Part shown: piece by piece, positions 1,156 through 18,271 of the stretch
How positions within the stretch are numbered: the first letter of the stretch is position 1
How the letters are laid out: each line of letters starts with the position of its first letter
IMG/VR virus record: IMGVR_UViG_2872698443_000001
Source: a virus
Lineage: Duplodnaviria > Heunggongvirae > Uroviricota > Caudoviricetes
Reading direction: 5' to 3' (one strand)
DNA length: 18,271 nt
The notes under the pieces: generated by a model
Seen by the model: the letters and a program-made list of their open reading frames with translations, nothing else
Databases searched by the model: none
What the model was told of the DNA's origin: nothing
Program-made: the position numbers and the translations under genes

Positions 1156-2376
1156 ATGGCTGGCGAACTTAACAAACTGAGCGACAGGAAGTTAAAGGGA
1201 TTACATGGTATCCCGGCCAGTAAGATTGAGTTCTATGCTGATGGTGCCGGGCTGAGCGCCAAGGTAACTAAAGCTGGTGGTATTAGCTGGGTGTTTACTT
1301 ACCGACTCGACGGGCAGAAGCTGCATCGTCTTACTCTGGGACGATACCCGGATATGAGCCTCAAAGAGGCCCGTTCTTCGCGTGATAAATGCCGCCAATG
1401 GCTGGCCTCAGGTAAAGATCCAAAGCACCAGTTGGCGCTGACCACTCAGGAAACGCTTAAACCGGTCACTGTTAAGGAAGCTATAGAATACTGGATACGC
1501 GAATATGCAGAAGAGAACCGCGCGAATGTTGAACGGCACAAAGCGGAGCTGCGAAAACACATTTATCCTTATATAGGGAAAATGGCGCTCGCTGACTGTG
1601 AAACACGATACTGGCTTGACTGCTTTGACAGGATGAAAAAGAAAACTCCAGTCGCCGCAGGTTATGTGTTCCAGATGTGCAAACAAGCCCTGAAATTCTG
1701 CCGGGTTCGTCGCTATGCTGTGAGTACCGCGCTTGAAGATTTAACAATTCCAGATGTCGGTAAAAAACAGGCAAAAAAAGACCGGGTATTAAACGATAAA
1801 GAGGCTGGCGATTTATGGGCTGCCATTTCCTCTGGCACTTGCTTCATGCCTTACTACACCAGGCTACTGACAATCTTAATGGTGTTTGGGTGCCGAACGC
1901 AGGAGGCCAGGCTATCAGAGTGGAGTGAATGGGATATGGATGCCTGGGTCTGGACAGTTCCCAAAGAGCACAGCAAGGGCGGCGAGAAGATTGTAAGACC
2001 TGTGCCGGATGCCATGCGCAAATTCATTGAAATACTGCATGATGAAACGAAACGATCCGGCCTTTTGCTTGGGTCGGTTAAAGGCAGTGAAGCGGTAAGT
2101 CAGTGGGGCCGCGGTGTTTATAAAAAGCTGGGGCATTCTGAACCATGGACACTGCACGATCTAAGACGAACTTTAGCAACGCATATGAATAATATGGGTA
2201 TAGCACCACACGTTGTCGAACAGTTGTTGGGGCACTCAATGCCGGGAGTTATGGCGATTTATAACCGTAGTCTGTACTTGCCTGAGAAATTGGATGCGTT
2301 GAATAAATGGTATGACAGACTTGATATTTTATCAGGTGGATTCACTAACATTGTTTTGTTGAATAGGGCTGAATAA
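1156..2376 (+). CDS. Tyrosine-type site-specific integrase (P4-like, 406 aa)
   Basis: Long ORF adjacent to the att repeat; C-terminal catalytic signatures (HDLRRT, GHSMPGVMAIYNRS with the presumptive catalytic Tyr); N-terminal region resembles the arm-binding domain of P4-family integrases. Confidence 0.9.
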   Translation: MAGELNKLSDRKLKGLHGIPASKIEFYADGAGLSAKVTKAGGISWVFTYRLDGQKLHRLTLGRYPDMSLKEARSSRDKCRQWLASGKDPKHQLALTTQETLKPVTVKEAIEYWIREYAEENRANVERHKAELRKHIYPYIGKMALADCETRYWLDCFDRMKKKTPVAAGYVFQMCKQALKFCRVRRYAVSTALEDLTIPDVGKKQAKKDRVLNDKEAGDLWAAISSGTCFMPYYTRLLTILMVFGCRTQEARLSEWSEWDMDAWVWTVPKEHSKGGEKIVRPVPDAMRKFIEILHDETKRSGLLLGSVKGSEAVSQWGRGVYKKLGHSEPWTLHDLRRTLATHMNNMGIAPHVVEQLLGHSMPGVMAIYNRSLYLPEKLDALNKWYDRLDILSGGFTNIVLLNRAE

Positions 2377-2923
2377 TGACTAGTTTTCTAAAATTGGGTA
2401 TTTTCGAGCGAGAAGCCAAAGCCCCGGAACTCAATATTAAACAACTTGCACTACTTATGTGTGGGGTAGATCCGACAGTTAAAACTGCTGATATCCCTGA
2501 GGCGAAAGTTGAAGCTTACAATATATACTATCGACAACTGAGTAGATGGTTATCAGCATCTAAATTATTTCGAGGTGGAAACTCAACAGCCTATCCCGCA
2601 GACTATATGTTTGCTCTGGCATATCCTCTTATTGATGAAGATATTACACCACAACCCATAAAGGACAGATGCCTTGCGGCGGTGGCTATAATTGCTAATC
2701 AAAACAAAGGAAAAGAGCATCTTTATGCTATGGGAGGGGATGAGCTTTTACAGGTCGGAATTGCATTGAAAAGCAGCAAACGCGGCTTGCATCGTAAAGA
2801 AGATGAAAAGGAATATAATGATAAATTAATGGGGATGCTGGTCAAGCTTATAGCACATAAGATAGGCCGGTAATGCTGCCAACTTACTGATTTAGTGTAT
2901 GATGGTGTTTTTGAGGTGCTCCA

Positions 2924-3199
2924 GTGGCTTCTGTTTCTATCAGCTGTCCCTCCTGTTCAGCTACTGACGGGGTGGTGCGTAACGGCAAAAGCACCGCCGG
3001 ACATCAGCGCTATCTCTGCTCTCACTGCCGTAAAACATGGCAACTGCAGTTCACTTACACCGCTTCTCAACCCGGTACGCACCAGAAAATCATTGATATG
3101 GCCATGAATGGCGTTGGATGCCGGGCAACTGCCCGCATTATGGGCGTTGGCCTCAACACGATTTTACGTCACTTAAAAAACTCAGGCCGCAGTCGGTAA
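2924..3199 (+). CDS. insA: IS1 InsA
   Basis: 91-aa [26 protein letters not shown]... recognised as IS1 InsA with its zinc-finger and HTH region. Confidence 0.95.
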
Positions 3200-3621
3200 C
3201 CTCGCGCATACAGCCGGGCAGTGACGTCATCGTCTGCGCGGAAATGGACGAACAGTGGGGCTATGTCGGGGCTAAATCGCGCCAGCGCTGGCTGTTTTAC
3301 GCGTATGACAGGCTCCGGAAGACGGTTGTTGCGCACGTATTCGGTGAACGCACTATGGCGACGCTGGGGCGTCTTATGAGCCTGCTGTCACCCTTTGACG
3401 TGGTGATATGGATGACGGATGGCTGGCCGCTGTATGAATTCCGCCTGAAGGGAAAGCTGCACGTAATCAGCAAGCGATATACGCAGCGAATTGAGCGGCA
3501 TAACCTGAATCTGAGGCAGCACCTGGCACGGCTGGGACGGAAGTCGCTGTCGTTCTCAAAATCGGTGGAGCTGCATGACAAAGTCATCGGGCATTATCTG
3601 AACATAAAACACTATCAATAA
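3118..3621 (+). CDS. insB: IS1 InsB (expressed as InsAB' transposase by -1 frameshift)
   Basis: 167-aa ORF recognised as IS1 InsB; overlaps insA in the -1 frame; frameshift site TTAAAAAAC at about 3173-3181. Confidence 0.9.
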
Positions 3622-3939
3622 GTTGGAGTCATTACCAGATAGGCCATTCGTTTGGCACCTCTAAAAAACCAAGCATCTCGGCTATTTTAAACGAACTATA
3701 TAAATTAGCTGATGAGGAAGGTATATCTAAAACTGGATTATCCAAATCAGCAATATATGATAAAATTCGCAAGGCATTAAATTCGATTTATTATACGGAA
3801 TGAATATTATTTTGCAGTGTTAGTGGGTATTATTTATATTTCATGTGAAAATACTAATTAATTATATTTGTTGGAGCTTTTGGCGATTCTATGATCGCCA
3901 AGGAGATTCAATTGTTATATTTGATGTTTATTACAGTTA

Positions 3940-4020
3940 CATTCAACAGCATTCAACAGCATTCAACGACACGTAATGACACGTAACGGCACCCGACAGC
4001 ACCTAACAATACCTAGCTCC
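3940..4020. repeat. Array of ~10-bp phased direct repeats (CATTCAACAG x3, CACGTAAYGR x2, CACCYRACA-like x2)
   Basis: Read directly: successive near-identical decamers with exact 10-bp spacing in the AT-rich intergenic region upstream of alpA. Confidence 0.6.
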
Positions 4021-4060
4021 ATCCACGGTCTCTACTAGGTCATTACTTGCTAACTTTTTC

Positions 4061-4120
4061 CATCTTTGTTCATGGTTATTCATCACTGTTCATCAGCGTT
4101 CATCATTGTTCATCTTTGTT
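4061..4120. repeat. Six phased CATC-NN-TGTT decamers (iteron-like, TGTTCAT core); candidate crr-like or regulatory protein-binding array
   Basis: CATCTTTGTT CATGGTTATT CATCACTGTT CATCAGCGTT CATCATTGTT CATCTTTGTT at exact 10-bp periodicity; the TGTTCAT core resembles the TGTTCACC iterons at 8571-8799, about 4.5 kb away. Confidence 0.5.
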
Positions 4121-4373
4121 ATGAACAATCCAAGGCGAATCAAATCGTTAGAGAACGGTGATCTTCGGCGAGTTATTGAAATTCATGATTTTTTCTCTCG
4201 CGACAGCCGTTGAAATTACTGTGGAAATTGTTTTCAACAGGGGAGCGTTATCTTGATGGAATTTCTATCTTTCAATGGAATTGCGTGTTCTTTTAAAGGA
4301 TTCCAGAATCAATGGAAATGCTGGTCGTTTATCCACTAATCTCTTCGCATAACATTGAAACAGTGGAGGCAGC

Positions 4374-4658
4374 ATGCAAAATATAACCTTTACCCCGCCA
4401 AATCCTGAACAACGCCGCACCCTTTTAGAAGAGTACGGCTTTAAGTTTGATCGCCGAATCCGTGAAGATGAATGCAGCGAGATCACCAGTCTTTCCCGTT
4501 CCAGCCGCTGGAAGATGGAACAGCAGGGGCGCTTCCCTCCGCGCTGTCACTTTGGCCGCAATAGCTGTGCTTGGCTTCTTTCGGATGTGCTCTGGTGGGT
4601 TCGTAATCCGCCAGCAGTAGAGAACGTCAATAACCCATACAGCCGTAAATCTGCTTAA
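4374..4658 (+). CDS. alpA: AlpA-family phage transcriptional regulator (94 aa)
   Basis: Translation contains the AlpA-type HTH region (ITSLSRSSRWKMEQQGRFPPRCHFGRNSCAWLLSDVLWW); GGAGG Shine-Dalgarno 5 nt upstream of the ATG. Confidence 0.85.
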   Translation: MQNITFTPPNPEQRRTLLEEYGFKFDRRIREDECSEITSLSRSSRWKMEQQGRFPPRCHFGRNSCAWLLSDVLWWVRNPPAVENVNNPYSRKSA

Positions 4659-4678
4659 TTAACCACAGGTAATCTGAG

Positions 4679-5371
4679 ATGAAAAAGATTAATGCCCTCC
4701 ACGGGCAGGGATTCGCTCACCCTGTAGCCAGCCAGCACGATATTTCAGCGAACCGTAAACAGGTTATTGCCGGTGACTGGTCGCCCATTAATCGTGGTGA
4801 ATTTACGCTTGCCGATCTGGGGTTGCGCCACAACGGTAACGGGCTGGTGTGGCTGCGTTCCGGCGTGTCCGTGCATGAGGCAGACCATGATGCAGGGATA
4901 AGCGGCAAGGACAAGACCAAAGGAAGGGTTAACGGCCTTCCTTTTGAATTTGTCGGCCAGTGGCAGGAATACCCGACTAAACGCAGCTTTGCCGTTTCAG
5001 TATCTACGGAACTACGGCGCCAGTATTACCCGGACGATGCCGCATTCAGTAAGGCAATGCGTGAGGCTGGTTATGTTCCGGTGCGCACTCGCAAACTGAC
5101 CGGAAAGGATGCTCGTTTTTGGCTGTACCGTGTAACGGGCAATGATAAGGGGGTTGTCGCAGCAGAATCCGCGCCACACAAGGCTTGCGCGCCAGTTGTC
5201 CAGACCATATCTAAGCCTCATCCGTGGTTTAAGCGTGTGGCACTCGATGGTAAATGGCAGTACGTCTACGCAGATCACATCCGCTTTCTGACTAAAAAGC
5301 GTCATCGCGTCGATGGTGTTCGGGTTCAGGGGTATACCGCTGGCGGGCTGAAAGTGGAGGCTATTGTATGA
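4679..5371 (+). CDS. Hypothetical protein (230 aa)
   Basis: Long ORF co-directional with alpA; its stop overlaps the next ORF start (ATGA). No family recognised. Confidence 0.6.
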   Translation: MKKINALHGQGFAHPVASQHDISANRKQVIAGDWSPINRGEFTLADLGLRHNGNGLVWLRSGVSVHEADHDAGISGKDKTKGRVNGLPFEFVGQWQEYPTKRSFAVSVSTELRRQYYPDDAAFSKAMREAGYVPVRTRKLTGKDARFWLYRVTGNDKGVVAAESAPHKACAPVVQTISKPHPWFKRVALDGKWQYVYADHIRFLTKKRHRVDGVRVQGYTAGGLKVEAIV

Positions 5372-5723
5372 CAGGCAAAACAAAGGCGGCCATGCCGGGC
5401 CGCCTGAGTCTCAACGCTTTACTGAAACATCGCCAGATTACCAGGCTTGCCGCTGGTGGTCAAACCTTGAGCCAACGAAATCCGTACGCACAAATTAACC
5501 GCGTACGTTTAATGTACGGAGATCGAGACAAAGGCGAACAGTATTCGGGTTCATGGCAAAACAACGTTAAACGTGGTTTAGAGGCTCCGACGAAAAACGT
5601 AGAGAGCTGCGAAGATAACCAACCCTCTTTAAGAGGGGAGCCTCTGCACAACTCATTAATAGTTGCGCAAAACAGACCCTTTTTAAGAGGGGCAGTCCAC
5701 AGCATTACGGGGAGTAACCCTGT

Positions 5724-5897
5724 TCAGCCTTTTGGCTCGATGCCGCGCTTATCAAGTTCACGGCGCAAAAGGCGTTTTATCCATCCCGACTTATTATCGT
5801 CACCGTCTTCTTTCATCGCTAAAGCGAGCCGCTCTGACAGTTCTTTATCGAGTCTGAGCTGCACAACATGGCGCTCTTTATTTTCGCTTGTTGACAT
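5724..5897 (-). CDS. Ribbon-helix-helix (CopG/Arc-like) small DNA-binding protein, 58 aa, antisense to the surrounding operon
   Basis: MSTSENKERHVVQLRLDKELSERLALAMKEDGDDNKSGWIKRLLRRELDKRGIEPKG shows a beta-strand then two helices typical of RHH proteins; AGGAG Shine-Dalgarno 6 nt upstream of the ATG (reverse complement of 5895-5908). Start chosen at an internal Met of the 95-aa track ORF. Confidence 0.6.
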   Translation of the reverse strand: MSTSENKERHVVQLRLDKELSERLALAMKEDGDDNKSGWIKRLLRRELDKRGIEPKG

Positions 5898-5940
5898 TGT
5901 CAACTCCTGTGGTCTAGTCTGTAGTGGAGTTGACAATGTA
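5894..5940. promoter_or_regulatory. Perfect 14-bp inverted repeat (ACATTGTCAACTCC / GGAGTTGACAATGT) with 18-bp spacer overlapping the RHH gene start; candidate operator
   Basis: Arms at 5894-5907 and 5926-5939 are exact reverse complements; each arm contains a TTGACA hexamer and an SD-ATG arrangement. Confidence 0.5.
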
Positions 5941-6037
5941 CTACATTGCATGACTTTTAGTAAAGCAAAGCCCGGCAGTGGTGGAACACTAACCGGGCCT
6001 CTAACCACCACCGTTAGCGAAAGTAACGAGGCAGCTA

Positions 6038-6228
6038 TGAAAGATCATATCACACACCCGCAAGGGCGGAAGTCCTACATCTGGCGTTTTCTTGCACTGA
6101 GCGCCATCGGTCGCAACGTCATTCACATCACAGCTAACACTGAGCGCGAAGCCCGTGAGCAATCACCGGCTGGCTGCGTGATGGTATTCGCTGGCCGTCT
6201 ACCAGTTCAGGAGGTTCGCTATGCGTGA
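6038..6228 (+). CDS. Small hypothetical protein (63 aa), possible true 3' portion of the 286-aa track ORF
   Basis: Internal ATG at 6038 preceded by GAGG; its stop overlaps the start of the next ORF (ATG 6221, TGA 6226-6228), consistent with translational coupling. Weak evidence. Confidence 0.3.
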
Positions 6229-6415
6229 GCCAATCTGTCTGGAGCAGGCCGAATATAAATCAGCGCTGGCTTCATCACTTTACGAAACCATCCTGGAAAA
6301 AGCCTCTGCTGAATGTTCAGAAACGCTGCTGAATCTGATTTCTATTGCGTGTGATTTTAATCAGGAAATTCACCGGGCATTAATCGCCGAGCTGCACATG
6401 GGAGAGACAAAGTGA
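6221..6415 (+). CDS. Small hypothetical phage protein (64 aa)
   Basis: ORF in a chain of overlapping small genes immediately upstream of the replication gene. Confidence 0.5.
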   Translation: MREPICLEQAEYKSALASSLYETILEKASAECSETLLNLISIACDFNQEIHRALIAELHMGETK

Positions 6416-6627
6416 GACAGGTTCCTTTTGAAGTCCTGATGCACGCTGAAAATGCCCTTTCAGAAAGTGAGTGCGCAATGTCTGTGCTAAGCATGTGGAT
6501 TGACAGCATTCCCGACGGTGAAGAACACCGTGAGGAAGCGTGCCGTGTCGGAGCAATTATGTCTCTGCTGCACAAATCTATCGGCGAGCTGGTGAAGGCG
6601 CGGGAGGCTTACAGTGCGAAATCCTGA
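6412..6627 (+). CDS. Small hypothetical phage protein (71 aa, GTG start)
   Basis: GTG start preceded by GGAGAG; overlaps the previous stop, indicating translational coupling. Confidence 0.5.
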   Translation: MRQVPFEVLMHAENALSESECAMSVLSMWIDSIPDGEEHREEACRVGAIMSLLHKSIGELVKAREAYSAKS

Positions 6628-6805
6628 AATCAACGATAGCTGGAAGGATAAGCGCGGCGAACTGGTCACGGTGAAAGATAACGCATTTAACCGGGTAACG
6701 TTTGTGCGTGATGGTTACGATTTTCCGTGCATCTTTCCGCTGGAAAGGTTCGTTAAAGAGTTCACTTTCGTTAGCTGGGGGCTGAAAGATGAAAAACGCG
6801 CCTAA
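6614..6805 (+). CDS. Small hypothetical phage protein (63 aa, GTG start)
   Basis: GTG start preceded by GGGAGG; overlaps the start of the replication gene. The pattern resembles small proteins I recall next to P4-family replication genes, but that is from memory and uncertain. Confidence 0.5.
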   Translation: MRNPEINDSWKDKRGELVTVKDNAFNRVTFVRDGYDFPCIFPLERFVKEFTFVSWGLKDEKRA

Positions 6806-8540
6806 TGTGAAAACCCTCCCGCGCGACAAAATGGAGGAGGCCATCATCTTTGCTGGAACGGGAGCATGGAAAGCCGCTCAGGATTACCAGAAAGGGAAGG
6901 GCGAGCATGGAGACGATGTTCCGCCTGTGGTTCTGGATCACACTCAACTGGCGGAATTGCCACACCTGCGCATTGTTGATAAAGGCCGTCGATTTGCCCG
7001 TGTCTGTCAGGCCGGGCTTATCGAGCAAAACCAAATCAGCATGATTGCAAATAAGCTGTGTGAGGCTGGCGTTACCAATGCTGAGTTTATCAACGAAAAA
7101 GGCGAGAAAGAGGACTGGACGCCATTGATGAAACGTCTGGAAGACGAGCCACTTATGGTGACTACGAGGGGAAGTGCTACGCCTGCGCTTAACCAGATGG
7201 GAGCCAGCCAGCGCGGGGAAGTTCTGCTTGCTCATTACGATGGCAATCTGGCGATCCATGCTGATTCCGACACGGTTCATCATTACAACGGCGTGGTGTG
7301 GGTTCCGCTTTCGGATAAAGAGCTGCAGCGAGAAATGGCGCAGATTTTTATTGATTCCGAAGTCGCCTATTCGCAGAACGCGATTAAATCCGCTGTCGAT
7401 ACAATGAAGCTGGGCCTCCCGGTAATGGGTAACACAGCCCGTAACCTGATTGGTTTCAGCAACGGGGTTTTTGATACCCGGTTAGGCCAATTTCGACCGC
7501 ATGATAAAAAGGACTGGCTTATCGTTGCGAGCGAATTGCCATTCAGCGAACCAGCAGAAGGTGAAACTCTGGCAACCCATGCGCCTAACTTCTGGAAATG
7601 GCTCCGCCGCTCTGTGGCGGATAATGACCGAAAAGCAGACCGCGTACTGTCTGCGCTGTTTATGGTGCTGGCGAACCGGTACGACTGGCAGCTGTTTCTT
7701 GAGGTAACGGGGCCGGGCGGAAGTGGTAAAAGTGTTATGGCTGAGATCTGCACGATGCTGGCGGGCAAGGCCAACACCGTATCGGCGAGCATGGCGGCGC
7801 TGGAGAACCCAAGGGAAAGGGCGCTGGTAGTGGGCTATTCGCTGATTATCATGCCGGATATGACCCGGTACGCTGGCGACGGCGCAGGGATTAAAGCTAT
7901 CACTGGCGGGGATAAGGTAGCCATTGACCCTAAACACAAAGCGCCATATTCAACCCGTATACCTGCGGTGGTGCTGGCCGTCAATAACAATGCCATGTCG
8001 TTCAGCGACAGAAGCGGGGGGATTTCCAGACGGCGGGTGATTTTCAACTTCTCCGAAGTGGTACCGGAAAACGAACGCGATCCTATGCTGGCCGAGAAGA
8101 TTGAAGGTGAGCTGGCTGTAATCATTCGCCACCTGCTCACTCGCTTTTCCAGGCAGGACGAAGCCAAACAGCTTTTGCATGAGCAGCAAAAATCAGAAGA
8201 AGCGCTGGCCATTAAACGTGAAGGGGATTCACTGGTGGACTTTTGCGGCTACCTGATGGCTTCGGTGGTTTGTGATGGAATGCTGATTGGTAATGCCGAG
8301 ATCGTGCCATTCAGCCCGCGCCGTTATCTGTATCACGCTTATCTGGCTTACATGCGGGCCAATGGTCTTAGCAAGCCTGTATCGTTAATGCGGTTCGGTA
8401 CGGATATGCCAGGCGCAATGGCTGAATATGGCAAGGAGTACCAGAAGCGCAAAACTAAACATGGCATAAGATCGAACGTCACCCTGCATGATGATTCAGA
8501 AGACTGGATGCCAATGTGTACCGATACAACAAAAGAATAA
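6789..8540 (+). CDS. P4-alpha-like replication protein with SF3 helicase domain (583 aa); no obvious primase domain
   Basis: Walker A GPGGSGKS in a D5/P4-primase-C-terminal-type helicase context; followed immediately by an array of TGTTCACC iterons, the recognition sequence of P4 alpha. Confidence 0.85.
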   Translation: MKNAPNVKTLPRDKMEEAIIFAGTGAWKAAQDYQKGKGEHGDDVPPVVLDHTQLAELPHLRIVDKGRRFARVCQAGLIEQNQISMIANKLCEAGVTNAEFINEKGEKEDWTPLMKRLEDEPLMVTTRGSATPALNQMGASQRGEVLLAHYDGNLAIHADSDTVHHYNGVVWVPLSDKELQREMAQIFIDSEVAYSQNAIKSAVDTMKLGLPVMGNTARNLIGFSNGVFDTRLGQFRPHDKKDWLIVASELPFSEPAEGETLATHAPNFWKWLRRSVADNDRKADRVLSALFMVLANRYDWQLFLEVTGPGGSGKSVMAEICTMLAGKANTVSASMAALENPRERALVVGYSLIIMPDMTRYAGDGAGIKAITGGDKVAIDPKHKAPYSTRIPAVVLAVNNNAMSFSDRSGGISRRRVIFNFSEVVPENERDPMLAEKIEGELAVIIRHLLTRFSRQDEAKQLLHEQQKSEEALAIKREGDSLVDFCGYLMASVVCDGMLIGNAEIVPFSPRRYLYHAYLAYMRANGLSKPVSLMRFGTDMPGAMAEYGKEYQKRKTKHGIRSNVTLHDDSEDWMPMCTDTTKE

Positions 8541-8570
8541 AGGCGGGGAAAATTAAAAGTAATGGGATAA

Positions 8571-8799
8571 GTGTTCACCACTGTTCACCATGTATAAAAA
8601 TCATTAAATAACAATATGTTAATGGGTGAACACTTTTTTATGAAGTGTTCACCAAGTATTCACCAGTTCACCTTTAAAGGGCTTTTCTTTTAAAAGGTGA
8701 AGGGTTAAGGTGAACACTAGTGAATACTTAAAATCATAGTCTTCACCCTGTAACCGAATGAATTTAAATAGGAAAAATGCAAAGGTGAACAGGTGAACA
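8571..8799. repeat. Origin-type iteron array: about 10 copies of TGTTCACC / GGTGAACA in both orientations (P4 ori-like)
   Basis: Copies at about 8572, 8582, 8625 (rc), 8646, 8657 (variant), 8665 (variant), 8709 (rc), 8720 (rc variant), 8784 (rc) and 8791 (rc), in AT-rich DNA just downstream of the helicase gene. Confidence 0.8.
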
Positions 8800-8837
8800 C
8801 TTAAACGCATATTTTTAAATTTTACAGGAGGGGCTGT

Positions 8838-9098
8838 ATGCCAATCACTAACGAGGAACGTAGGGAACACCTGGAAAAGTTTGGTTTAACCAGTCTTGAT
8901 ACAACGCACACTGCCGATTACCGTAAAGCCCTTGAAGAGGAAGCGTTCTTTTGGGATGACCCACACGGTTTTGTGATGCACACGCTTTCCGGAGAGCGAC
9001 TCGTTACGAATACAGAACAGCTGGATGCCTTGCTCGAGCATCTGGAAGGATACCGTGCTTTATTGCCTGACCCTCCGGAATGGATGAGAGAAGATTAA
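8838..9098 (+). CDS. Small acidic hypothetical protein (86 aa)
   Basis: ATG preceded by AGGAGGGG; the protein has many more Asp/Glu than Lys/Arg residues. No family recognised. Confidence 0.55.
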   Translation: MPITNEERREHLEKFGLTSLDTTHTADYRKALEEEAFFWDDPHGFVMHTLSGERLVTNTEQLDALLEHLEGYRALLPDPPEWMRED

Positions 9099-9104
9099 TC
9101 AAGT

Positions 9105-9125
9105 GGCCTCATCACAGATGAGGCC
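9105..9125. terminator. Hairpin between convergent genes (8-bp stem GGCCTCAT / ATGAGGCC, loop CACAG); possible bidirectional terminator
   Basis: Perfect inverted repeat between the stop of 8838-9098 (+) and the stop of 9137-9658 (-); flanking T-tracts are weak. Confidence 0.4.
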
Positions 9126-9136
9126 TAATATGAGAT

Positions 9137-9658
9137 TTAACGATGTAATTCATTAATTTTGTCGCTGACGTTTTTTTTCCTTAACTCATTCAAGAAAAAA
9201 TAATTAACAAGTATCACCCTAAATATCGCTGCGAATTGCGCGATAGCCAAGAAAGCTACAAATGTAAAATTAAGGTATTTAACATAAGGGATATAGTTAA
9301 CATCAACCAGGCCTTTAAGTAAAGGGGCGAAGAATTGTATAAGAAGAACAGCCATTAATACAACAGCTGATACCATGACGATCTCAACTAATTCGCTTAA
9401 ATAATTAGCATCTTTATGTGATTCCTTCCCCTCGGCTTTATTTGATTGAGGTGAGTCCCTCTTATTTAATATTCTCGCCATCGCCCTTGGATAAATAATT
9501 GCTATCCAGGCGCCTATAATGGCAAATATTATAGATGAAATATTAAGCAGGGCACCTAGCGTGTCCTTGTAATCATTATAGCCAAGCGTTGTTATTCGGC
9601 CTCTAAATATAATGGCCATCAAGGCTGCTATAAGCACATAAATTATATATTTTATCAT
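9137..9658 (-). CDS. Small integral membrane protein with four predicted transmembrane helices (173 aa); second gene of cargo operon
   Basis: Four hydrophobic stretches (about residues 4-18, 34-56, 88-113, 129-153) separated by charged loops; its start is 1 nt after the upstream gene's stop (TGA-C-ATG on the minus strand); visibly AT-rich. Confidence 0.75.
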   Translation of the reverse strand: MIKYIIYVLIAALMAIIFRGRITTLGYNDYKDTLGALLNISSIIFAIIGAWIAIIYPRAMARILNKRDSPQSNKAEGKESHKDANYLSELVEIVMVSAVVLMAVLLIQFFAPLLKGLVDVNYIPYVKYLNFTFVAFLAIAQFAAIFRVILVNYFFLNELRKKNVSDKINELHR

Positions 9659-9659
9659 G

Positions 9660-10694
9660 TCACCCCCCTGCTGGTGGTGTCTTCATTTTGTTTAACAACT
9701 CTGCTCTGCGTTTTATTATAGCAGATAACAGTCTTTCTGGAGCTATTATGTGGTTATCTTTTCGCCGAACATTTAGCTCGGTTTCAAAAGCAACATTTGC
9801 ACCGCTAAGCCAGATAGATTTCCCGTCACTATATTTGAAGCCAACATTCCTTATAGGTGAGCTATTACCTAACTCATTATAGTTTTTAATAATTAATTTT
9901 AGCTGTGATTCTGTTGGTTTGAATTCCATCTCGTGAAAGATCGTTCTTTCCTGTGTGTTTGCTGGTGTGTTTTTTAACAGGCCAGAAAAAACTCTTTCAA
10001 TTATTTTTCTATCATCTGGGGCTAAATAAGTTATTTTTTCTCTTTTTAATATCTTTGTGATTCTGTGAATGTTATTAATTAACTCTGCCTGAACCTCATC
10101 ATATTTCATTCCTACAGCATAAAATTTAGGGTTTAATTTTTCTGAATCAGAGTTTTTCTTAGCATCAGCGGAAAAGCCAATTACTTTATCATCATTATCG
10201 AGCACGCGATATGGGGATTTGTTTGCAAGATATCCATTGAGATAGTTATCAAGATTACCCTTTCCCATTAGAGAGTGTTCAAATTTGATTGAAGCAAAAG
10301 CATTTTCATCAGGAATGAACCAAAAGTAACAAGGAAATCCTGGAATAGCCTTATCGACATCAAATCCAGTGGTTAACATATCCACTTTACCGGGTTTAGC
10401 TAGCGGTGGCATACCATATATCACCCCACTATCATTGGGAACCTCTGCCCAAAGAGTTAAAAGGTGGTCTCCGTACTGCCTGTCTGACGCCAAACCACAA
10501 AAATAGGTATTGCGGATGTCCTCTTCCTTTTCGGCTTGGTAGGTAAGAGTATTGATGAACTCTCTTCCATCAGAAGCCCAACCTTTCAGTTTAAGCAATG
10601 TATCAGTGGTGTTGCCTAAGTCTGGTTTTTTAGAGCCGTGCTTGTAATATCCGCATCTATTGATATCAAAAAACTTCAGTTTTGCAGTTAGCAT
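9660..10694 (-). CDS. Hypothetical soluble protein (344 aa); first gene of cargo operon, candidate sensor or effector of a defence system
   Basis: Long ORF with a good RBS (AAAGGAAAATAA-ATG); visibly AT-rich compared with the flanking capsid and replication genes; no nucleotidyltransferase, ATPase or other motif recognised by eye. Confidence 0.75.
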   Translation of the reverse strand: MLTAKLKFFDINRCGYYKHGSKKPDLGNTTDTLLKLKGWASDGREFINTLTYQAEKEEDIRNTYFCGLASDRQYGDHLLTLWAEVPNDSGVIYGMPPLAKPGKVDMLTTGFDVDKAIPGFPCYFWFIPDENAFASIKFEHSLMGKGNLDNYLNGYLANKSPYRVLDNDDKVIGFSADAKKNSDSEKLNPKFYAVGMKYDEVQAELINNIHRITKILKREKITYLAPDDRKIIERVFSGLLKNTPANTQERTIFHEMEFKPTESQLKLIIKNYNELGNSSPIRNVGFKYSDGKSIWLSGANVAFETELNVRRKDNHIIAPERLLSAIIKRRAELLNKMKTPPAGG

Positions 10695-10708
10695 TTATTT
10701 TCCTTTTT

Positions 10709-10736
10709 ATTATCACTACCGAGAGGCTGTGGTTAA
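10709..10736 (-). promoter_or_regulatory. Candidate sigma70 promoter for the cargo operon (extended -10 GTGATAAT, -35 TTAACC, 16-nt spacer)
   Basis: Reverse complement of 10709-10716 is GTGATAAT and of 10731-10736 is TTAACC; positioned just upstream of the 344-aa gene. Motif-level only. Confidence 0.3.
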
Positions 10737-10845
10737 ATAATCTAACAAAAAAATTCTTTTGTAAATTATTTGTTCTCATGTTTATTCGTGATTGCCTCTG
10801 TCTATGTACGGGGTTTTCTTTATATTTTTCATGTATATCTTTAAG

Positions 10846-10933
10846 AGTGGCACTCAGACGTGAGCCGCCACTGGCCGTTAAGTCAAGCTGTAGCGAGTAC
10901 AGCCTGCGAGAGGCAGAAAAAGATTTAACGGCC
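10846..10933. other. GC-rich nested inverted-repeat element in an otherwise AT-rich divergent intergenic region
   Basis: Outer 9-bp stem GGCCGTTAA (10873-10881) / TTAACGGCC (10925-10933) enclosing hairpins GCTGTA-GCGAG-TACAGC and CTGC-GAGAG-GCAG; a further GTGGC/GCCAC stem at 10846-10870. Confidence 0.35.
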
Positions 10934-10988
10934 TCCCCTCCAAGCGCTGGTTTCACGTCTCAACGTTAATTGTTACGGAAACCACTCC

Positions 10989-15713: not shown

Positions 15714-17358
15714 GTACGCAAATGCGATAAAAACGGGCGAAATTCCGGCCTGTAAGCGCGTAAAACAGGCCGTGGAAAGGTACTTTTCAGACCTGAATGA
15801 CCCCCGATATGAGTTCGATACGGCGACCGTAGAGCGGTTTATTGCGTTCTCGCGGCTCTGTCCTCACGTCAAAGGCCCGCTTCGGGGCCAGCCAATCGAT
15901 CTGGAACCGTGGCAGCAGTTCGCCTTTGCTAACCTGCTGGGCTTTAAAGTCAGAGAGACAGGCCGCCGTAAGTACAGCAGCGCCTTTATTGAGGTGCCGC
16001 GCAAGAATGCCAAATCCACCGTGGCCGCCATGCTGGCTAACTGGTTTCTGGTAATGGAGAAGGGCCAGCAGGATATCTATACGGCGGCGGTGAGCCGGGA
16101 TCAGGCCCGAATCGTGTTCGACGATGCCCGCCAGATGTGCCTGTTGTCAAAACCGCTGAAAAAGCGCGTAAATATTCAGGCGCATAAAGTCATTTTCCCG
16201 AAGAGCAACAGCCTGCTAAAGCCGCTGGCGGCGAAAGCGTCCACCATTGAAGGGACTAACCCCAGCCTAGCGATTGTCGATGAGTACCACCTTCACCCGG
16301 ATAACGGCGTTTATTCCGCCCTTGAGCTGGGTATGGGCGCACGTCCTGAGGCTATTTTGTTCGCCATAACGACCGCCGGGAGTAACGTTGTCTCAGCCTG
16401 TAAACAGCATTACGACTACTGTTGTCAGATTCTGGCCGGGGAAGAGAGCAACGATTCGCTGTTTGTCCTGATCTACGAGCTGGACGACGAAAGCGAGGTT
16501 GAGCAGCCTGAAATGTGGATCAAGGCCAACCCTAACCTGCATGTGTCCGTTGACGCGGCGAAGCTGGAATCCACCATCCAAAAAGCGCGGGGTATACCGT
16601 CGCAATGGGTGGAGATGCTGACCAAGCGTTTCAATATCTGGTGTCAGGGTTCTACACCGTGGATGGGTGCCGGGGCATGGGATGCCTGTGCACTCGATTA
16701 TGCCGAAGAAGATCTGGTCGGGATGGAGTGTTACGCCGGATTTGACCTGTCCTCAACCAGCGATATTACCAGCGTGAGTTACGCTTTCCCGTTTGAACGC
16801 GAGATCAGGCTTCTTACTCGGCACTATCTGCCCGAAGCGCAGCTACTTAACGTTGCTAACAAAAACCGCGCCATCTATCGCCAGTGGGTAAAAGCGGGCT
16901 GGATACGAACCACCCCCGGCGACTGTATCGACTATGACCGCATCCGTGACGATATCCTGCGCGATGCTGAAACATTCAATATCCGGCTGGTGGGCTTTGA
17001 TACGTGGAACGCCACTCACTTGCGAACCCAGTTACAGGGGGCCGGCCTCGATGTGGAGCCGTTCCCGCAAACCTATCTGAAATTCAGTCCGGTAGCGAAA
17101 TCTTTTGAGGTTTTTGTTAACCGCAAGGTGGTGCGCCATCGTGGCGATCCGGTTCTGGCTTGGGCGATTGGTAACGTGGTGATGGAGTCCGACGCCAACG
17201 CCAATATCAAACCCAACAAAAAGAAATCCTCCAACAAGATAGACCCGGCGGTTTCTGCACTCATGGCGTTCGGCACATTCCAGGCAGAACACGAAGATTT
17301 TGCTTTCGATATGAGCGACAGTCACAAAGAGCGACTGGCTTTATTTAATGGGATTTGA
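15697..17358 (+). CDS. Terminase large subunit (553 aa, TTG start)
   Basis: GAGGAGG RBS 6 nt upstream of the TTG start; overlaps the terS stop; size and ATPase/nuclease architecture typical of TerL. Confidence 0.9.
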   Translation: MTVWNEYANAIKTGEIPACKRVKQAVERYFSDLNDPRYEFDTATVERFIAFSRLCPHVKGPLRGQPIDLEPWQQFAFANLLGFKVRETGRRKYSSAFIEVPRKNAKSTVAAMLANWFLVMEKGQQDIYTAAVSRDQARIVFDDARQMCLLSKPLKKRVNIQAHKVIFPKSNSLLKPLAAKASTIEGTNPSLAIVDEYHLHPDNGVYSALELGMGARPEAILFAITTAGSNVVSACKQHYDYCCQILAGEESNDSLFVLIYELDDESEVEQPEMWIKANPNLHVSVDAAKLESTIQKARGIPSQWVEMLTKRFNIWCQGSTPWMGAGAWDACALDYAEEDLVGMECYAGFDLSSTSDITSVSYAFPFEREIRLLTRHYLPEAQLLNVANKNRAIYRQWVKAGWIRTTPGDCIDYDRIRDDILRDAETFNIRLVGFDTWNATHLRTQLQGAGLDVEPFPQTYLKFSPVAKSFEVFVNRKVVRHRGDPVLAWAIGNVVMESDANANIKPNKKKSSNKIDPAVSALMAFGTFQAEHEDFAFDMSDSHKERLALFNGI

Positions 17359-17508
17359 GCATAAAGCGTAAAGGAAGAATTATCTTGAGGTTATCAGGAA
17401 TATAAAATTGCTCTAGATCACTACATTGCTGTCGTGGAATAGGAAGAGTCTGTTTTGTTGTTTATAAATGTATTGCAGGGCTTTTCCTGTTCAAACTTCT
17501 GGTGAAAT

Positions 17509-17817
17509 ATGACTGATAAATGGGCTGATTACCTTATTTCTAAAGTCCGATATAACGATAAACACACTCACATTACCCATGTGTATGTGCATGTCGATAA
17601 TGGCGATACTGTTGGAGAAGGGACATCAGAAACACGGCAGTGGGTAGTGAATAAAATCGATAGCGGCTATACCTTTTACACCATTTTCAAAGGTGATGAC
17701 GGTAAGTGGAAGAAAGGTCAAAAAGTGGTTAAGGACCGTGTCAACGGTACTGATTACATTACTACTAGACCTAATGGTACATCCAAGGATAACTTAGAAA
17801 ACCTTCCTGAGTACTAA
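17509..17817 (+). CDS. DUF3892-like protein (102 aa), terminal cargo gene
   Basis: HITHVYVHV... and ...TTRPNGTSKDNLENLPEY motifs match my recollection of DUF3892 proteins; AT-rich; sits between terL and the right att repeat. Confidence 0.65.
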   Translation: MTDKWADYLISKVRYNDKHTHITHVYVHVDNGDTVGEGTSETRQWVVNKIDSGYTFYTIFKGDDGKWKKGQKVVKDRVNGTDYITTRPNGTSKDNLENLPEY

Positions 17818-17842
17818 ACACTTTGGTTACTAAAGGCATAAA

Positions 17843-17870
17843 GCATCAGAATTGTTCTGGTGCTTTTTTG
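17843..17870 (+). terminator. Rho-independent terminator after the DUF3892-like gene
   Basis: GCATCAGAA-TTG-TTCTGGTGC hairpin (one G-U pair) followed by TTTTTTGTTTGTT. Confidence 0.65.
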
Positions 17871-17885
17871 TTTGTTCAGCCAAAG

Positions 17886-17908
17886 CTGTATAAACATCTG
17901 TATAAACA
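17886..17908. promoter_or_regulatory. Second tandem TGTATAAACA pair, candidate arm-type integrase binding sites on the opposite arm
   Basis: CTGTATAAACATCTGTATAAACA matches 1115-1137 at 22/23 positions in the same orientation, 4 bp from the right att repeat. Confidence 0.45.
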
Positions 17909-17911
17909 ATA

Positions 17912-17989
17912 ATAAAAAAGGCGCATCCCCATGCCGAGTAGCGCCTTTTTATTCAATAACATAGCTGAAATGTATCAGTTCATGCCGTA
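17912..17989. repeat. Right copy of ~78-bp imperfect direct repeat; includes the fis terminator and the last five fis codons
   Basis: See 908-985; this copy is contiguous with the intact fis gene (stop at 17975-17977). Confidence 0.8.
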
Positions 17990-18271
17990 TTTTTTCAATT
18001 TTTTACGCAGCGTACCACGGTTGATGCCCATCATCAGCGCAGCACGGGTCTGGTTACCACGGGTGTATTGCATCACCATGTCCAACAGGGGCTGTTCTAC
18101 TTCAGCCAGTACCAGCTCATAGAGGTCATTCACATCCTGACCATTCAGTTGAGCAAAATAGTTCTTCAGTGCCTGTTTAACCGAGTCACGCAGGGGTTTT
18201 TGGGTTACCTGATCCTGAGAGTTAACGGTAGAAACGGTCAGTACGTCAGAATTTACGCGTTGTTCGAACAT
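17975..18271 (-). CDS. fis: DNA-binding protein Fis (complete, 98 aa; host gene)
   Basis: Translation is recognised as Fis, ending ...[13 protein letters not shown]; the ORF exactly fills the window end. Confidence 0.95.

What the first reader, a model, noticed from the sequence alone, without database searches (positions are those of the whole stretch)
9137..10988. AT-rich minus-strand two-gene cargo operon (344-aa soluble protein + 173-aa 4-TM protein): candidate uncharacterised anti-phage or abortive-infection system
These are the only long genes on the opposite strand inside the satellite, wedged between the replication origin and the head module and visibly more AT-rich than their neighbours (I did not compute GC). 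The two genes are translationally coupled (stop and start 1 nt apart) and have their own RBS and a candidate promoter. The architecture, a cytoplasmic protein followed by a small four-helix membrane protein, is that of sensor plus membrane-effector abortive-infection pairs (lambda RexA/RexB is the classic example; homology to it is not established). I could not recognise any catalytic motif in the 344-aa protein, so it may belong to an undescribed family. Satellites are known to carry defence cargo.
Basis: partly seen in the sequence, partly recalled or inferred. Interest (0 to 1): 0.85.

Follow-up and report, generated by a model that had tools for sequence, protein, structure and literature searches.

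The report
Rex-like defence candidate on phage satellite
The two AT-rich minus-strand genes are real, swappable cargo of a capsid-forming phage satellite, but they belong to an already catalogued, untested defence candidate (PADLOC PDC-M18) that resembles phage lambda's RexA/RexB exclusion system.

Summary
A 344-aa soluble protein (9660-10694, minus) and a 173-aa four-helix membrane protein (9137-9658, minus) lie 1 nt apart at 35-38% GC, against 48-55% in the rest of the element. The element is an E. coli capsid-forming PICI integrated between yhdJ and fis.

The family is not undescribed. Both proteins match PADLOC candidate PDC-M18 over their full length (E = 1.9e-71 and 7.8e-23). PDC-M18 is also hotspot system #4 of P4-like satellites in Rousset et al. 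2022 ("RexA + 4TM").

The pair is variable cargo. Six of 39 E. coli genomes with this capsid family carry it, and related satellites hold other genes in the slot, including a defence-associated nuclease. In 71 of 80 homologous loci across several phyla, the large gene is followed by a small membrane-protein gene.

My best reading is a Rex-like sensor plus membrane-effector abortive-infection module (confidence 0.55). Against this, the one tested homologue (pFR81) protected against none of eight coliphages.

It is a new member of a known candidate kind, of moderate interest.

The parts
9660..10694 (-). Gene A: 344-aa soluble protein (39 kDa, pI 8.9), a PDC-M18A family member with a RexA/RdgC-like fold. 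Its best-conserved motif is IPGxPxYFWFxP.
9137..9658 (-). Gene B: 173-aa four-helix inner-membrane protein, PDC-M18B family, the presumed effector. TM2 carries the conserved motif LLNISSIIFAIIGAWIAIIYP. The predicted topology is N-in/C-in, with a basic 30-aa loop 2 and a basic C-tail in the cytoplasm.
   Evidence: ORF. PADLOC PDLC04500, E = 7.8e-23. Hydropathy. AF2 helices, pLDDT 79. Family alignment. Loop charges +7/-4 and +5/-3.
9656..9662 (-). Stop/start junction TGAcATG, indicating tight translational coupling of A and B.
   Evidence: Sequence. In 71 of 80 homologous loci the next gene starts between -29 and +29 nt, often with a 4-nt overlap.
10695..10756 (-). The cargo's own 5' region: the Shine-Dalgarno sequence AAGGA and promoter-like hexamers. 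One hexamer pair lies at 10709-10736. A second starts at 10737 and runs to 10765, just past the cargo boundary.
   Evidence: Sequence. Consensus scan, which found no more sites than in shuffles, so this is only a candidate promoter.
9105..9125 (.). Perfect 9-bp inverted repeat GGCCTCATC/GATGAGGCC between the converging ends of gene B and the 86-aa ORF. It is a likely bidirectional terminator.
   Evidence: the repeat finder pair I16. The terminator role is inferred; the terminator scan did not call it, since no T-run follows on the minus strand.
9099..10756 (.). Extent of the exchangeable cargo module, between conserved backbone on both sides.
   Evidence: The right boundary falls at 10756/10757/10760 in three related satellites. 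On the left, the 86-aa ORF (8838-9098) is conserved at protein level in a satellite with an empty slot (31% identity, E = 3e-13).
10757..10988 (+). Conserved non-coding satellite backbone upstream of the capsid gene.
   Evidence: It is 87-97% identical in satellites that lack the pair.
8838..9098 (+). Conserved 86-aa satellite ORF that forms the left border of the slot.
   Evidence: (an 86-aa neighbour in the Enterobacter cf-PICI).

Best explanation
The pair is a horizontally acquired, exchangeable defence-type cargo. It sits in the variable slot just upstream of the packaging operon of an E. coli capsid-forming PICI. It is a member of the PDC-M18 candidate family, which I read as a distant, structurally recognisable relative of the lambda RexA/RexB phage-exclusion system.

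Proposed mechanism (inferred, not shown):
1. The two genes are co-transcribed from their own promoter and translationally coupled, which fixes their ratio.
2. Protein A is a cytoplasmic, basic, RexA/RdgC-fold protein. It probably forms a dimer that clamps DNA, and it senses a product of phage infection such as a replication or recombination DNA-protein intermediate, or a specific phage protein.
3. Activated A engages the basic cytoplasmic loop 2 or C-tail of B.
4. B oligomerises or opens as a pore or channel in the inner membrane.
5. The membrane depolarises or becomes permeable, ATP falls, growth stops and the infection aborts. This protects sister cells that carry the satellite, and incidentally the satellite's helper prophage, from competing phages.

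What is shown: the gene anatomy, family membership, RexA-like fold, conservation of the pair, and variable-cargo status. What is inferred: sensing, the A-B interaction, membrane damage and the defence phenotype.
For: - **Family.** Both proteins match PDC-M18A/B over their full length. Payne et al. define PDCs as genes embedded in BREX, DISARM or type I RM loci.
- **Other hotspots.** The same family is the fourth most common cargo of the P4 satellite defence hotspot.
- **Architecture.** A soluble protein is followed immediately by a four-TM protein of about 170 aa. This holds in 71 of 80 loci from Proteobacteria, Desulfobacterota, Campylobacterota, Cyanobacteria, Spirochaetes and Planctomycetota.
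- **Moron-like positions in phages.** In Pseudomonas phage Ps59 the pair lies downstream of the repressor with two genes between, the same layout reported for P. putida rexAB. In Burkholderia phage phiBt-TXDOH it lies next to attP and the integrase.
- **Variable cargo.** Six of 39 E. coli genomes with this capsid family carry the pair. Related satellites have nothing, other small ORFs, or a PADLOC Aga_Nuclease homologue (E = 7e-84) in the slot. An Enterobacter cf-PICI carries the pair in the same slot next to a different replication module.
- **Literature on the slot.** The cf-PICI literature expects immune systems in the variable regions flanking the packaging module.
- **Mechanism by analogy.** In Rex-type systems a RexA partner triggers RexB-dependent membrane damage and growth arrest.
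Against: - The only tested family member, pFR81 from E. coli IAI75 (25% and 29% identical to A and B), is listed among tested systems that were not validated as protective. [quoted passage not shown]
- No sequence-level link to RexA or RexB was found. BLASTP, Pfam, PADLOC RexA/RexB models, hmmsearch and three hhalign comparisons were all non-significant, with a best E of 0.03 and probability below 2%.
- The B model has no significant structural match, and RexB was not among the hits.
- The promoter is not supported beyond chance.
- The host satellite carries an IS1 insertion and may be decaying.
- There are no functional data for this locus.
Confidence: 0.55

Rival explanations
1. The module is Rex-like with reversed logic, as in mycobacteriophage Butters gp30/gp31. 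The soluble RexA-like protein A is the growth-arresting effector, for example by clamping or occluding DNA. The membrane protein B only sequesters or restrains it until infection releases it.
For: The Butters system is described this way among the five known Rex-like systems. A has a RexA/RdgC DNA-clamp-like fold. B has no recognisable pore or enzyme signature and no structural match.
Against: Four of the five described Rex-like systems use the membrane protein as effector. B has a very strongly conserved TM2 motif, invariant across phyla, which fits an active membrane function better than a passive tether.
Confidence: 0.12
2. The pair serves the mobile element's own life cycle rather than host defence. 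It could bias the maintenance-versus-induction decision, time helper exploitation, or stabilise the island in an addiction-like way. Lambda RexA similarly modulates the CI/Cro bistable switch independently of RexB.
For: RexA has a documented role in the bistable switch, and DNA binding is not strictly needed for exclusion. The P4-borne homologue showed no defence phenotype. In temperate phages the pair sits next to the repressor or integrase.
Against: The pair occurs on unrelated elements with unrelated regulators: cf-PICIs with two different replication modules, P4-like satellites, tailed temperate phages, and a site beside a filamentous prophage in Vibrio. It also occurs on chromosomes with no phage or integrase genes called within about 8 kb (Methylomonas), and embedded in RM/BREX/DISARM loci. 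It is absent from most sister satellites, which evidently function without it.
Confidence: 0.13
3. The pair is a passenger module with no defence role under natural conditions. It could be an unrelated membrane function or a selfish two-gene cassette that spreads through hotspots.
For: One homologue tested negative. Neither protein has a catalytic or transport signature. PDCs are explicitly described as untested.
Against: Four independent kinds of defence-type genomic context converge on this family: the P4 hotspot, the cf-PICI slot, embedding in RM/BREX/DISARM, and moron positions in phages. The pair is strongly conserved in sequence and gene order across phyla. A single narrow phage panel is a weak negative, and many validated systems act on only one or a few phages.
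Confidence: 0.2

Closest known systems
PADLOC PDC-M18, which is P4-like satellite hotspot system #4 of Rousset et al. 2022 (pFR81, 'RexA + 4TM', E. coli IAI75)
   Same: Same two protein families: PDC-M18A/B HMMs hit both the window proteins and the pFR81 proteins. They share gene order, tight coupling, a four-TM partner and a location in a satellite defence hotspot. They also share the conserved G-x-P-x-Y-[FY]-W-F motif in the large protein (GFPCYFWFIP here, GEPAYYWFVP in pFR81).
   Different: Identity is only 25% (A) and 29% (B). The carrier is a capsid-forming PICI, and the slot lies between the replication origin and the capsid gene. In P4 the slot lies between psu and int. The P4 version was tested and showed no protection; this version is untested.
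Phage lambda RexA/RexB exclusion system
   Different: No significant sequence similarity for either protein. PADLOC and Pfam RexA/RexB models do not hit. A is 65 residues longer and B 29 residues longer. The pair is not adjacent to a cI repressor here. T4 rII exclusion and membrane depolarisation are untested.
Pseudomonas putida prophage P1 RexABpp (PP_5643/PP_5644; Rosendahl et al. 2026)
   Different: I could not obtain the PP_5643/5644 sequences, so family membership is untested. Primer-derived sequences were absent from all searchable collections. PP_5643 gives HHpred 98% probability to RexA, closer than anything I saw for PDC-M18A. RexABpp has experimental support: defence, DNA binding, and RexB-dependent membrane damage.
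Actinobacteriophage Rex-like pairs (Sbash gp30/gp31, CarolAnn gp44/gp43, Butters gp30/gp31)
   Same: Prophage-encoded pairs of a soluble RexA-like protein and a membrane protein that exclude specific heterotypic phages. Their RexA homologues dimerise and bind DNA.
   Different: Different hosts and no sequence comparison done here. Their triggers are specific phage proteins. Butters uses the soluble protein as effector.

Membership tests
PADLOC PDC-M18 (two-gene phage defence candidate) | Large protein matches a PDC-M18A profile | tested here: met
   PDLC04494, E = 1.9e-71, residues 3-336 of 344 against profile positions 4-337 of 339. Five further PDC-M18A profiles also hit.
PADLOC PDC-M18 (two-gene phage defence candidate) | Small protein matches a PDC-M18B profile | tested here: met
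   PDLC04500, E = 7.8e-23, residues 5-168 of 173. Four further PDC-M18B profiles also hit.
PADLOC PDC-M18 (two-gene phage defence candidate) | The two genes are adjacent on one strand | tested here: met
   There is 1 nt between stop and start. The same arrangement occurs in 71 of 80 homologous loci.
PADLOC PDC-M18 (two-gene phage defence candidate) | Anti-phage activity. This is not part of the candidate definition but is needed to call it a defence system. | not testable with these tools
   PDCs are described as untested candidates. One homologue, pFR81, is listed among tested but non-protective systems.
Lambda RexAB-type exclusion system | RexA-family sequence (Pfam PF15969 or PADLOC RexA profile) | tested here: not met
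   No RexA hit in Pfam or PADLOC for this protein or for 25 family members. hhalign family profile against RexA profile gave E = 0.075 and 0.03, with probability below 2%. hmmsearch scored -1.6 bits. As a control, lambda RexA hits PADLOC RexA at 9e-110 and no PDC-M18 model.
Lambda RexAB-type exclusion system | RexA/RdgC-like fold | tested here: met
Lambda RexAB-type exclusion system | RexB-family sequence (Pfam RexB family or PADLOC RexB profile) | tested here: not met
   No RexB hit for B or for 20 family members. hhalign probability 0.4%. hmmsearch scored 2.8 bits with high bias. The only trace is a weak BLASTP match in TM1 (E = 0.002 pairwise).
Lambda RexAB-type exclusion system | Small four-TM inner-membrane partner encoded immediately downstream of the soluble protein | tested here: met
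   Hydropathy shows four segments, and the AF2 model is built of four long helices. The charge distribution fits N-in/C-in. The structural search of B was uninformative.
Lambda RexAB-type exclusion system | The soluble protein is a DNA-binding dimer that activates the membrane protein, causing depolarisation, growth arrest and phage exclusion | not testable with these tools
   Inferred only, from RexA, RexApp and the actinophage systems.
Capsid-forming PICI (context of the cargo) | Integrase, AlpA-type regulator and primase/replication module, plus its own capsid, protease, portal, head-tail connectors, HNH, TerS and TerL, with no tail or lysis genes | tested here: met
   RefSeq annotation of the source locus between yhdJ and fis. 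The component list follows SatelliteFinder's cfPICI definition.
Satellite defence-hotspot cargo | The slot's content varies among closely related elements while the flanks stay conserved, and alternative occupants are defence-related | tested here: met
   Six of 39 genomes with this capsid family carry the pair. The right boundary is sharp at 10756/10757. Alternative contents include an empty slot and a PADLOC Aga_Nuclease homologue. The literature expects immune systems in this slot.

The most novel reading that the evidence does not exclude
PDC-M18 and lambda RexAB may be two branches of one ancient and very large 'Rex superfamily': a RexA/RdgC-fold DNA-clamp sensor paired with a small four-TM effector. 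The PDC-M18 branch alone has 690 clusters at 50% identity, spanning Proteobacteria to Cyanobacteria, Spirochaetes and Planctomycetota. On satellites the module may be tuned to the satellite-helper conflict. For example, it could exclude phages that compete with the tail-donating helper, or sense helper replication intermediates. That would explain why a generic eight-phage panel saw nothing.
Probability: 0.2. Interest if true: 0.6.

Novelty: new member of a known kind. Interest (0 to 1): 0.4.

Why it matters
If the module is active, it would be the first functional evidence for PDC-M18. That family is the fourth most common cargo of the P4 defence hotspot and has hundreds of clusters across bacterial phyla. 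It would also tie the family mechanistically to RexAB, the oldest known abortive-infection system, whose trigger is still unknown after 70 years.

It would confirm that the slot upstream of the cf-PICI packaging operon is a defence hotspot, as the Penadés group expects. It would also provide a diverged second test case after the negative pFR81 result.

If it is inactive, it remains a correctly annotated candidate. In practical terms, these two "hypothetical proteins" in RefSeq can be annotated as PDC-M18A/B, a Rex-like candidate.

Tried and rejected
- **Sequence homology to RexA/RexB.** I tried BLASTP and hhalign of the family profile against single RexA and RexB sequences. I also compared profiles of 47 and 120 family members against an 18-sequence RexA profile. 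Pfam scans of every alignment member and local hmmsearch with all filters off completed the set. All were non-significant, so I do not file the pair as a RexAB family member by sequence.
- **PDB sequence-profile search.** Only noise was returned: calmodulin and endoglycosidase at E above 0.2.
- **Structure search for B.** BFVD gave nothing significant and no RexB. The afdb50 library was unavailable.
- **Is P. putida RexApp (PP_5643) a PDC-M18A member?** I reconstructed the gene ends from published primers. I searched a 25-mer from rexA and a 26-mer from rexB. The 25-mer was absent from viral, genome and metagenome collections; the 26-mer was absent from viral and metagenome collections. The N-terminus MHRTATFV loosely fits the family's first strand (x-I-T-F-Y) but proves nothing. 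The question is unresolved.
- **Transporter, metabolic, holin or toxin-antitoxin annotations.** Pfam and NCBIfam gave only sub-threshold noise. A UniRef label 'MotA/TolQ/ExbB' on one B homologue had no Pfam support in the scan of the 20 aligned B-family members, which included it.
- **Promoter.** Consensus hits were no more frequent than in shuffles.
- **Non-coding RNA.** Rfam found nothing in the window.
- **E. coli S163-2 as a cargo swap.** This strain has a 100% identical capsid gene but no pair. It turned out to be an IS1-adjacent deletion of the whole left arm, not a cargo exchange.
Full report
**1. The observation**

The window is a chromosomal segment of E. coli DETEC-P61 (100% match, NZ_CP116152.1). 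It contains a satellite integrated between yhdJ and fis.

The satellite's genes, in order, are:
- integrase
- an ORF truncated by IS1A
- an HTH regulator
- Icd-like and DUF4222 genes
- a primase
- an 86-aa ORF
- the two minus-strand genes under study
- major capsid protein, HK97 protease, portal, head-closure and head-tail connector proteins
- HNH endonuclease, TerS (P27 family), TerL and a DUF3892 protein

It has no tail or lysis genes. This is the component set of a capsid-forming PICI.

One base separates stop and start (TGAcATG), and both starts have Shine-Dalgarno-like sequences. GC is 0.377 and 0.351, against 0.484 and 0.547 for the rest of the element.

The small protein has four hydrophobic segments. 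Its AlphaFold model is built of four long helices (pLDDT 79). Loop charges place the 30-residue loop 2 (+7/-4) and the C-tail (+5/-3) in the cytoplasm.

To the left lies an iteron array, GGTGAACAC in at least 10 copies in both orientations (8569-8802).

Two details need correcting. The promoter-like hexamers upstream are no more frequent than in shuffled sequence.

**2. What the proteins are**

Pfam and NCBIfam return nothing above noise. PADLOC gives full-length matches to PDC-M18A (E = 1.9e-71) and PDC-M18B (E = 7.8e-23). PHROGs has both as families of unknown function.

PDCs are "phage defence candidates". Payne et al. predicted them because at least one family member is embedded inside a BREX, DISARM or type I RM locus, and they describe the 145 candidates as untested.

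The Domainator paper equates PDC-M18 with system #4 of the P4-satellite hotspot catalogue of Rousset et al. 2022, found in 24 of 910 hotspots. [quoted passage not shown]

Their construct pFR81 ("RexA + 4TM", E. coli IAI75) appears in Table S2B, among tested systems that were not validated as protective. [quoted passage not shown]

I confirmed that the pFR81 proteins are PDC-M18A/B (2e-34 and 3e-16). They are homologous to the window proteins over their full length, at only 25% and 29% identity. The family is therefore described, though not functionally validated.

**3. Relation to RexA/RexB**

Every sequence method failed to link either protein to lambda RexA or RexB:
- BLASTP
- profile against single sequence
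- profile against profile, with up to 120 family members against 18 RexA homologues (E = 0.075 and 0.03, probability below 2%)
- hmmsearch with all filters off
- Pfam scans of all alignment members

Lambda RexA and RexB hit only PADLOC's RexA and RexB models, not PDC-M18.

In my reading of the secondary structure, the model has three parts:
- an N-terminal strand-rich domain
- an inserted α/β domain with about four to five strands and four helices
- C-terminal helices

This resembles the published description of RexA, a split globular domain interrupted by a dimerisation domain. The comparison rests on that reading, not on a superposition.

The non-significant hhalign alignment is collinear over 219 columns. 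It places the family's best-conserved motif (GFPCYFWF...FASIKF) on RexA's conserved GFPSFLFV...IGFARTVF. This is suggestive only.

For protein B I could show only shared architecture. BFVD gave no significant structural match.

In summary, A has a RexA/RdgC-like fold, B is a RexB-like partner by architecture only, and sequence-family membership in RexAB is tested and not met.

**4. Conservation and spread of the pair**

A profile search of 1.84 billion representatives found 690 clusters (385 at E ≤ 1e-30). Nearly all of the 150 best matches listed are single-domain proteins of 335-375 aa.

A scan of species-representative genomes returned 80 loci from Gamma- and Betaproteobacteria, Desulfobacterota, Campylobacterota, Cyanobacteria, Spirochaetes and Planctomycetota. 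In 71 of 80, the A gene is followed within -29 to +29 nt by a 140-220-aa protein with three or four hydrophobic segments, often with a 4-nt overlap. Some of the remainder are visibly frameshifted or truncated A genes, or lie near contig ends.

Contexts are typical of mobile, accessory genes:
- another cf-PICI in Enterobacter sp. C2, with the pair in the same slot but a different replication module
- Vibrio parahaemolyticus, next to small integrated phage-like elements and a Zot-encoding filamentous prophage
- a Methylomonas chromosome, among housekeeping genes (fumarase, Lon protease), with no phage or integrase genes called within about 8 kb
- eight deposited phage genomes

In Pseudomonas phage Ps59 the order is repressor, two genes, A, B. 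This is the layout reported for rexAB in P. putida prophage P1. In Burkholderia phage phiBt-TXDOH the pair abuts attP and the integrase.

**5. Variable cargo**

This capsid gene family occurs in 39 of 5,426 complete E. coli genomes, and the pair in six of them.

Related satellites share the 232-bp pre-capsid region, with homology resuming at window position 10756, 10757 or 10760. Upstream of that point they differ:
- PE15 has only the homologue of the 86-aa ORF, so the slot is empty.
- PCP06171, integrated at the same att site, has two unrelated small ORFs.
- SCU-125 has two small ORFs.
- ABW_S38 has a 281-aa protein matching PADLOC's Aga_Nuclease at 7e-84.

The cargo is therefore 9099-10756.

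**6. Mechanism**

The best-supported model is by analogy with Rex-type systems. In lambda, P. putida, Sbash and CarolAnn, the soluble RexA-type protein is a DNA-binding dimer. It is activated by infection and triggers the membrane protein. The result is depolarisation or permeabilisation, growth arrest and aborted infection. The ratio of the two proteins matters.

Three features here fit that model: tight translational coupling, a basic RexA-fold protein (pI 8.9), and a B protein with basic cytoplasmic surfaces and an invariant TM2 motif. None of the functional steps is shown for this locus.

The rivals are:
- Butters-like reversed roles, with A as effector
- a role in the element's own life cycle, like RexA's effect on the lambda bistable switch
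- an inert passenger

The negative pFR81 result weighs against a broad-spectrum defence. It is a weak negative, however. The panel was small, other hotspot systems in that study acted on only one or a few phages, and the window proteins are only 25-29% identical to pFR81.

**7. Novelty and verdict**

The claim of a possibly undescribed family does not. This is a new, diverged member of a catalogued candidate system, in a new but anticipated carrier context.

- explicit structural evidence that PDC-M18A has the RexA/RdgC fold
- the size and phylogenetic breadth of the family
- near-universal pairing with the four-TM gene
- the pair's presence in the cf-PICI pre-packaging hotspot

I could not determine whether the experimentally validated P. 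putida RexABpp belongs to this family. That single check would most change the assessment.

Interest is 0.4.

Noticed in passing
window 2376-3641: An IS1A element (transposase CDS at about 2924-3621) interrupts the gene immediately downstream of the integrase. RefSeq marks 2376-2867 as a partial pseudogene missing its C-terminus. In the Enterobacter cf-PICI, the gene at that position is an intact 301-aa DUF6387 protein. The satellite may therefore be partly disabled.
   Followed up: partly
L095 (E. coli S163-2, NZ_CP058709.1 3346753-3357919): The same satellite is at the same att site, with a 100% identical capsid gene. Here the IS1 copy abuts the capsid gene directly. The whole regulation, replication and cargo arm (equivalent to window positions about 3642-10988) has been lost, apparently through an IS1-adjacent deletion.
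   Followed up: partly
window 8569-8802: A dense array of the 9-mer GGTGAACAC/GTGTTCACC, at least 10 copies in both orientations, lies in AT-rich DNA just after the primase gene. It is a probable iteron-type replication origin. The region is 92% conserved in ABW_S38 up to position 8825.
   Followed up: partly
window 10757-10988: A 232-bp non-coding stretch upstream of the capsid gene is 87-97% identical across satellites whose neighbouring cargo and replication modules differ. It contains a terminator-like hairpin on the plus strand (10796-10813). It is presumably the regulatory region of the packaging operon. Rfam finds nothing there.
   Followed up: no
L004 4151-4996 (E. coli ABW_S38): The equivalent slot of a sister satellite holds a 281-aa protein matching PADLOC 'Aga_Nuclease' (E = 7e-84), preceded by a 114-aa ORF with no match. 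This is a different defence-associated cargo in the same hotspot.
   Followed up: partly
L015 (Citrobacter freundii MAG, QFQQ01000144.1) and L012 (Enterobacter sp. C2): A 99.4% identical copy of this region, primase through capsid gene including the cargo, is present in a Citrobacter freundii metagenome-assembled genome. A version about 76% identical is in Enterobacter sp. C2, with a RepA-helicase replication module instead of the primase. This fits the reported spread of cf-PICIs between genera.
   Followed up: partly
window 17250-18271: After terL, GC drops to 0.38-0.42. This region holds a DUF3892 gene (17509-17817) and a 63-aa ORF (17931-18122) before fis. It is the second variable region, after the packaging module, where the cf-PICI literature also expects immune genes. 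The DUF3892 protein has no PADLOC hit.
   Followed up: partly
window 3500-4370: A low-GC stretch (0.36-0.41) between IS1 and the HTH regulator gene has no ORF of 50 aa or more and no annotation. The expected 3' remainder of the IS1-disrupted gene is not visible as an ORF.
   Followed up: no
L009-L011 (Vibrio parahaemolyticus): The PDC-M18 pair there is always followed by a convergent DUF3653 gene. It sits at the edge of different small integrated elements: one with P2_N/P2_C and REP_ORF2-G2P hits, another a Zot-encoding filamentous prophage. This suggests a shared integration or cargo hotspot.
   Followed up: no
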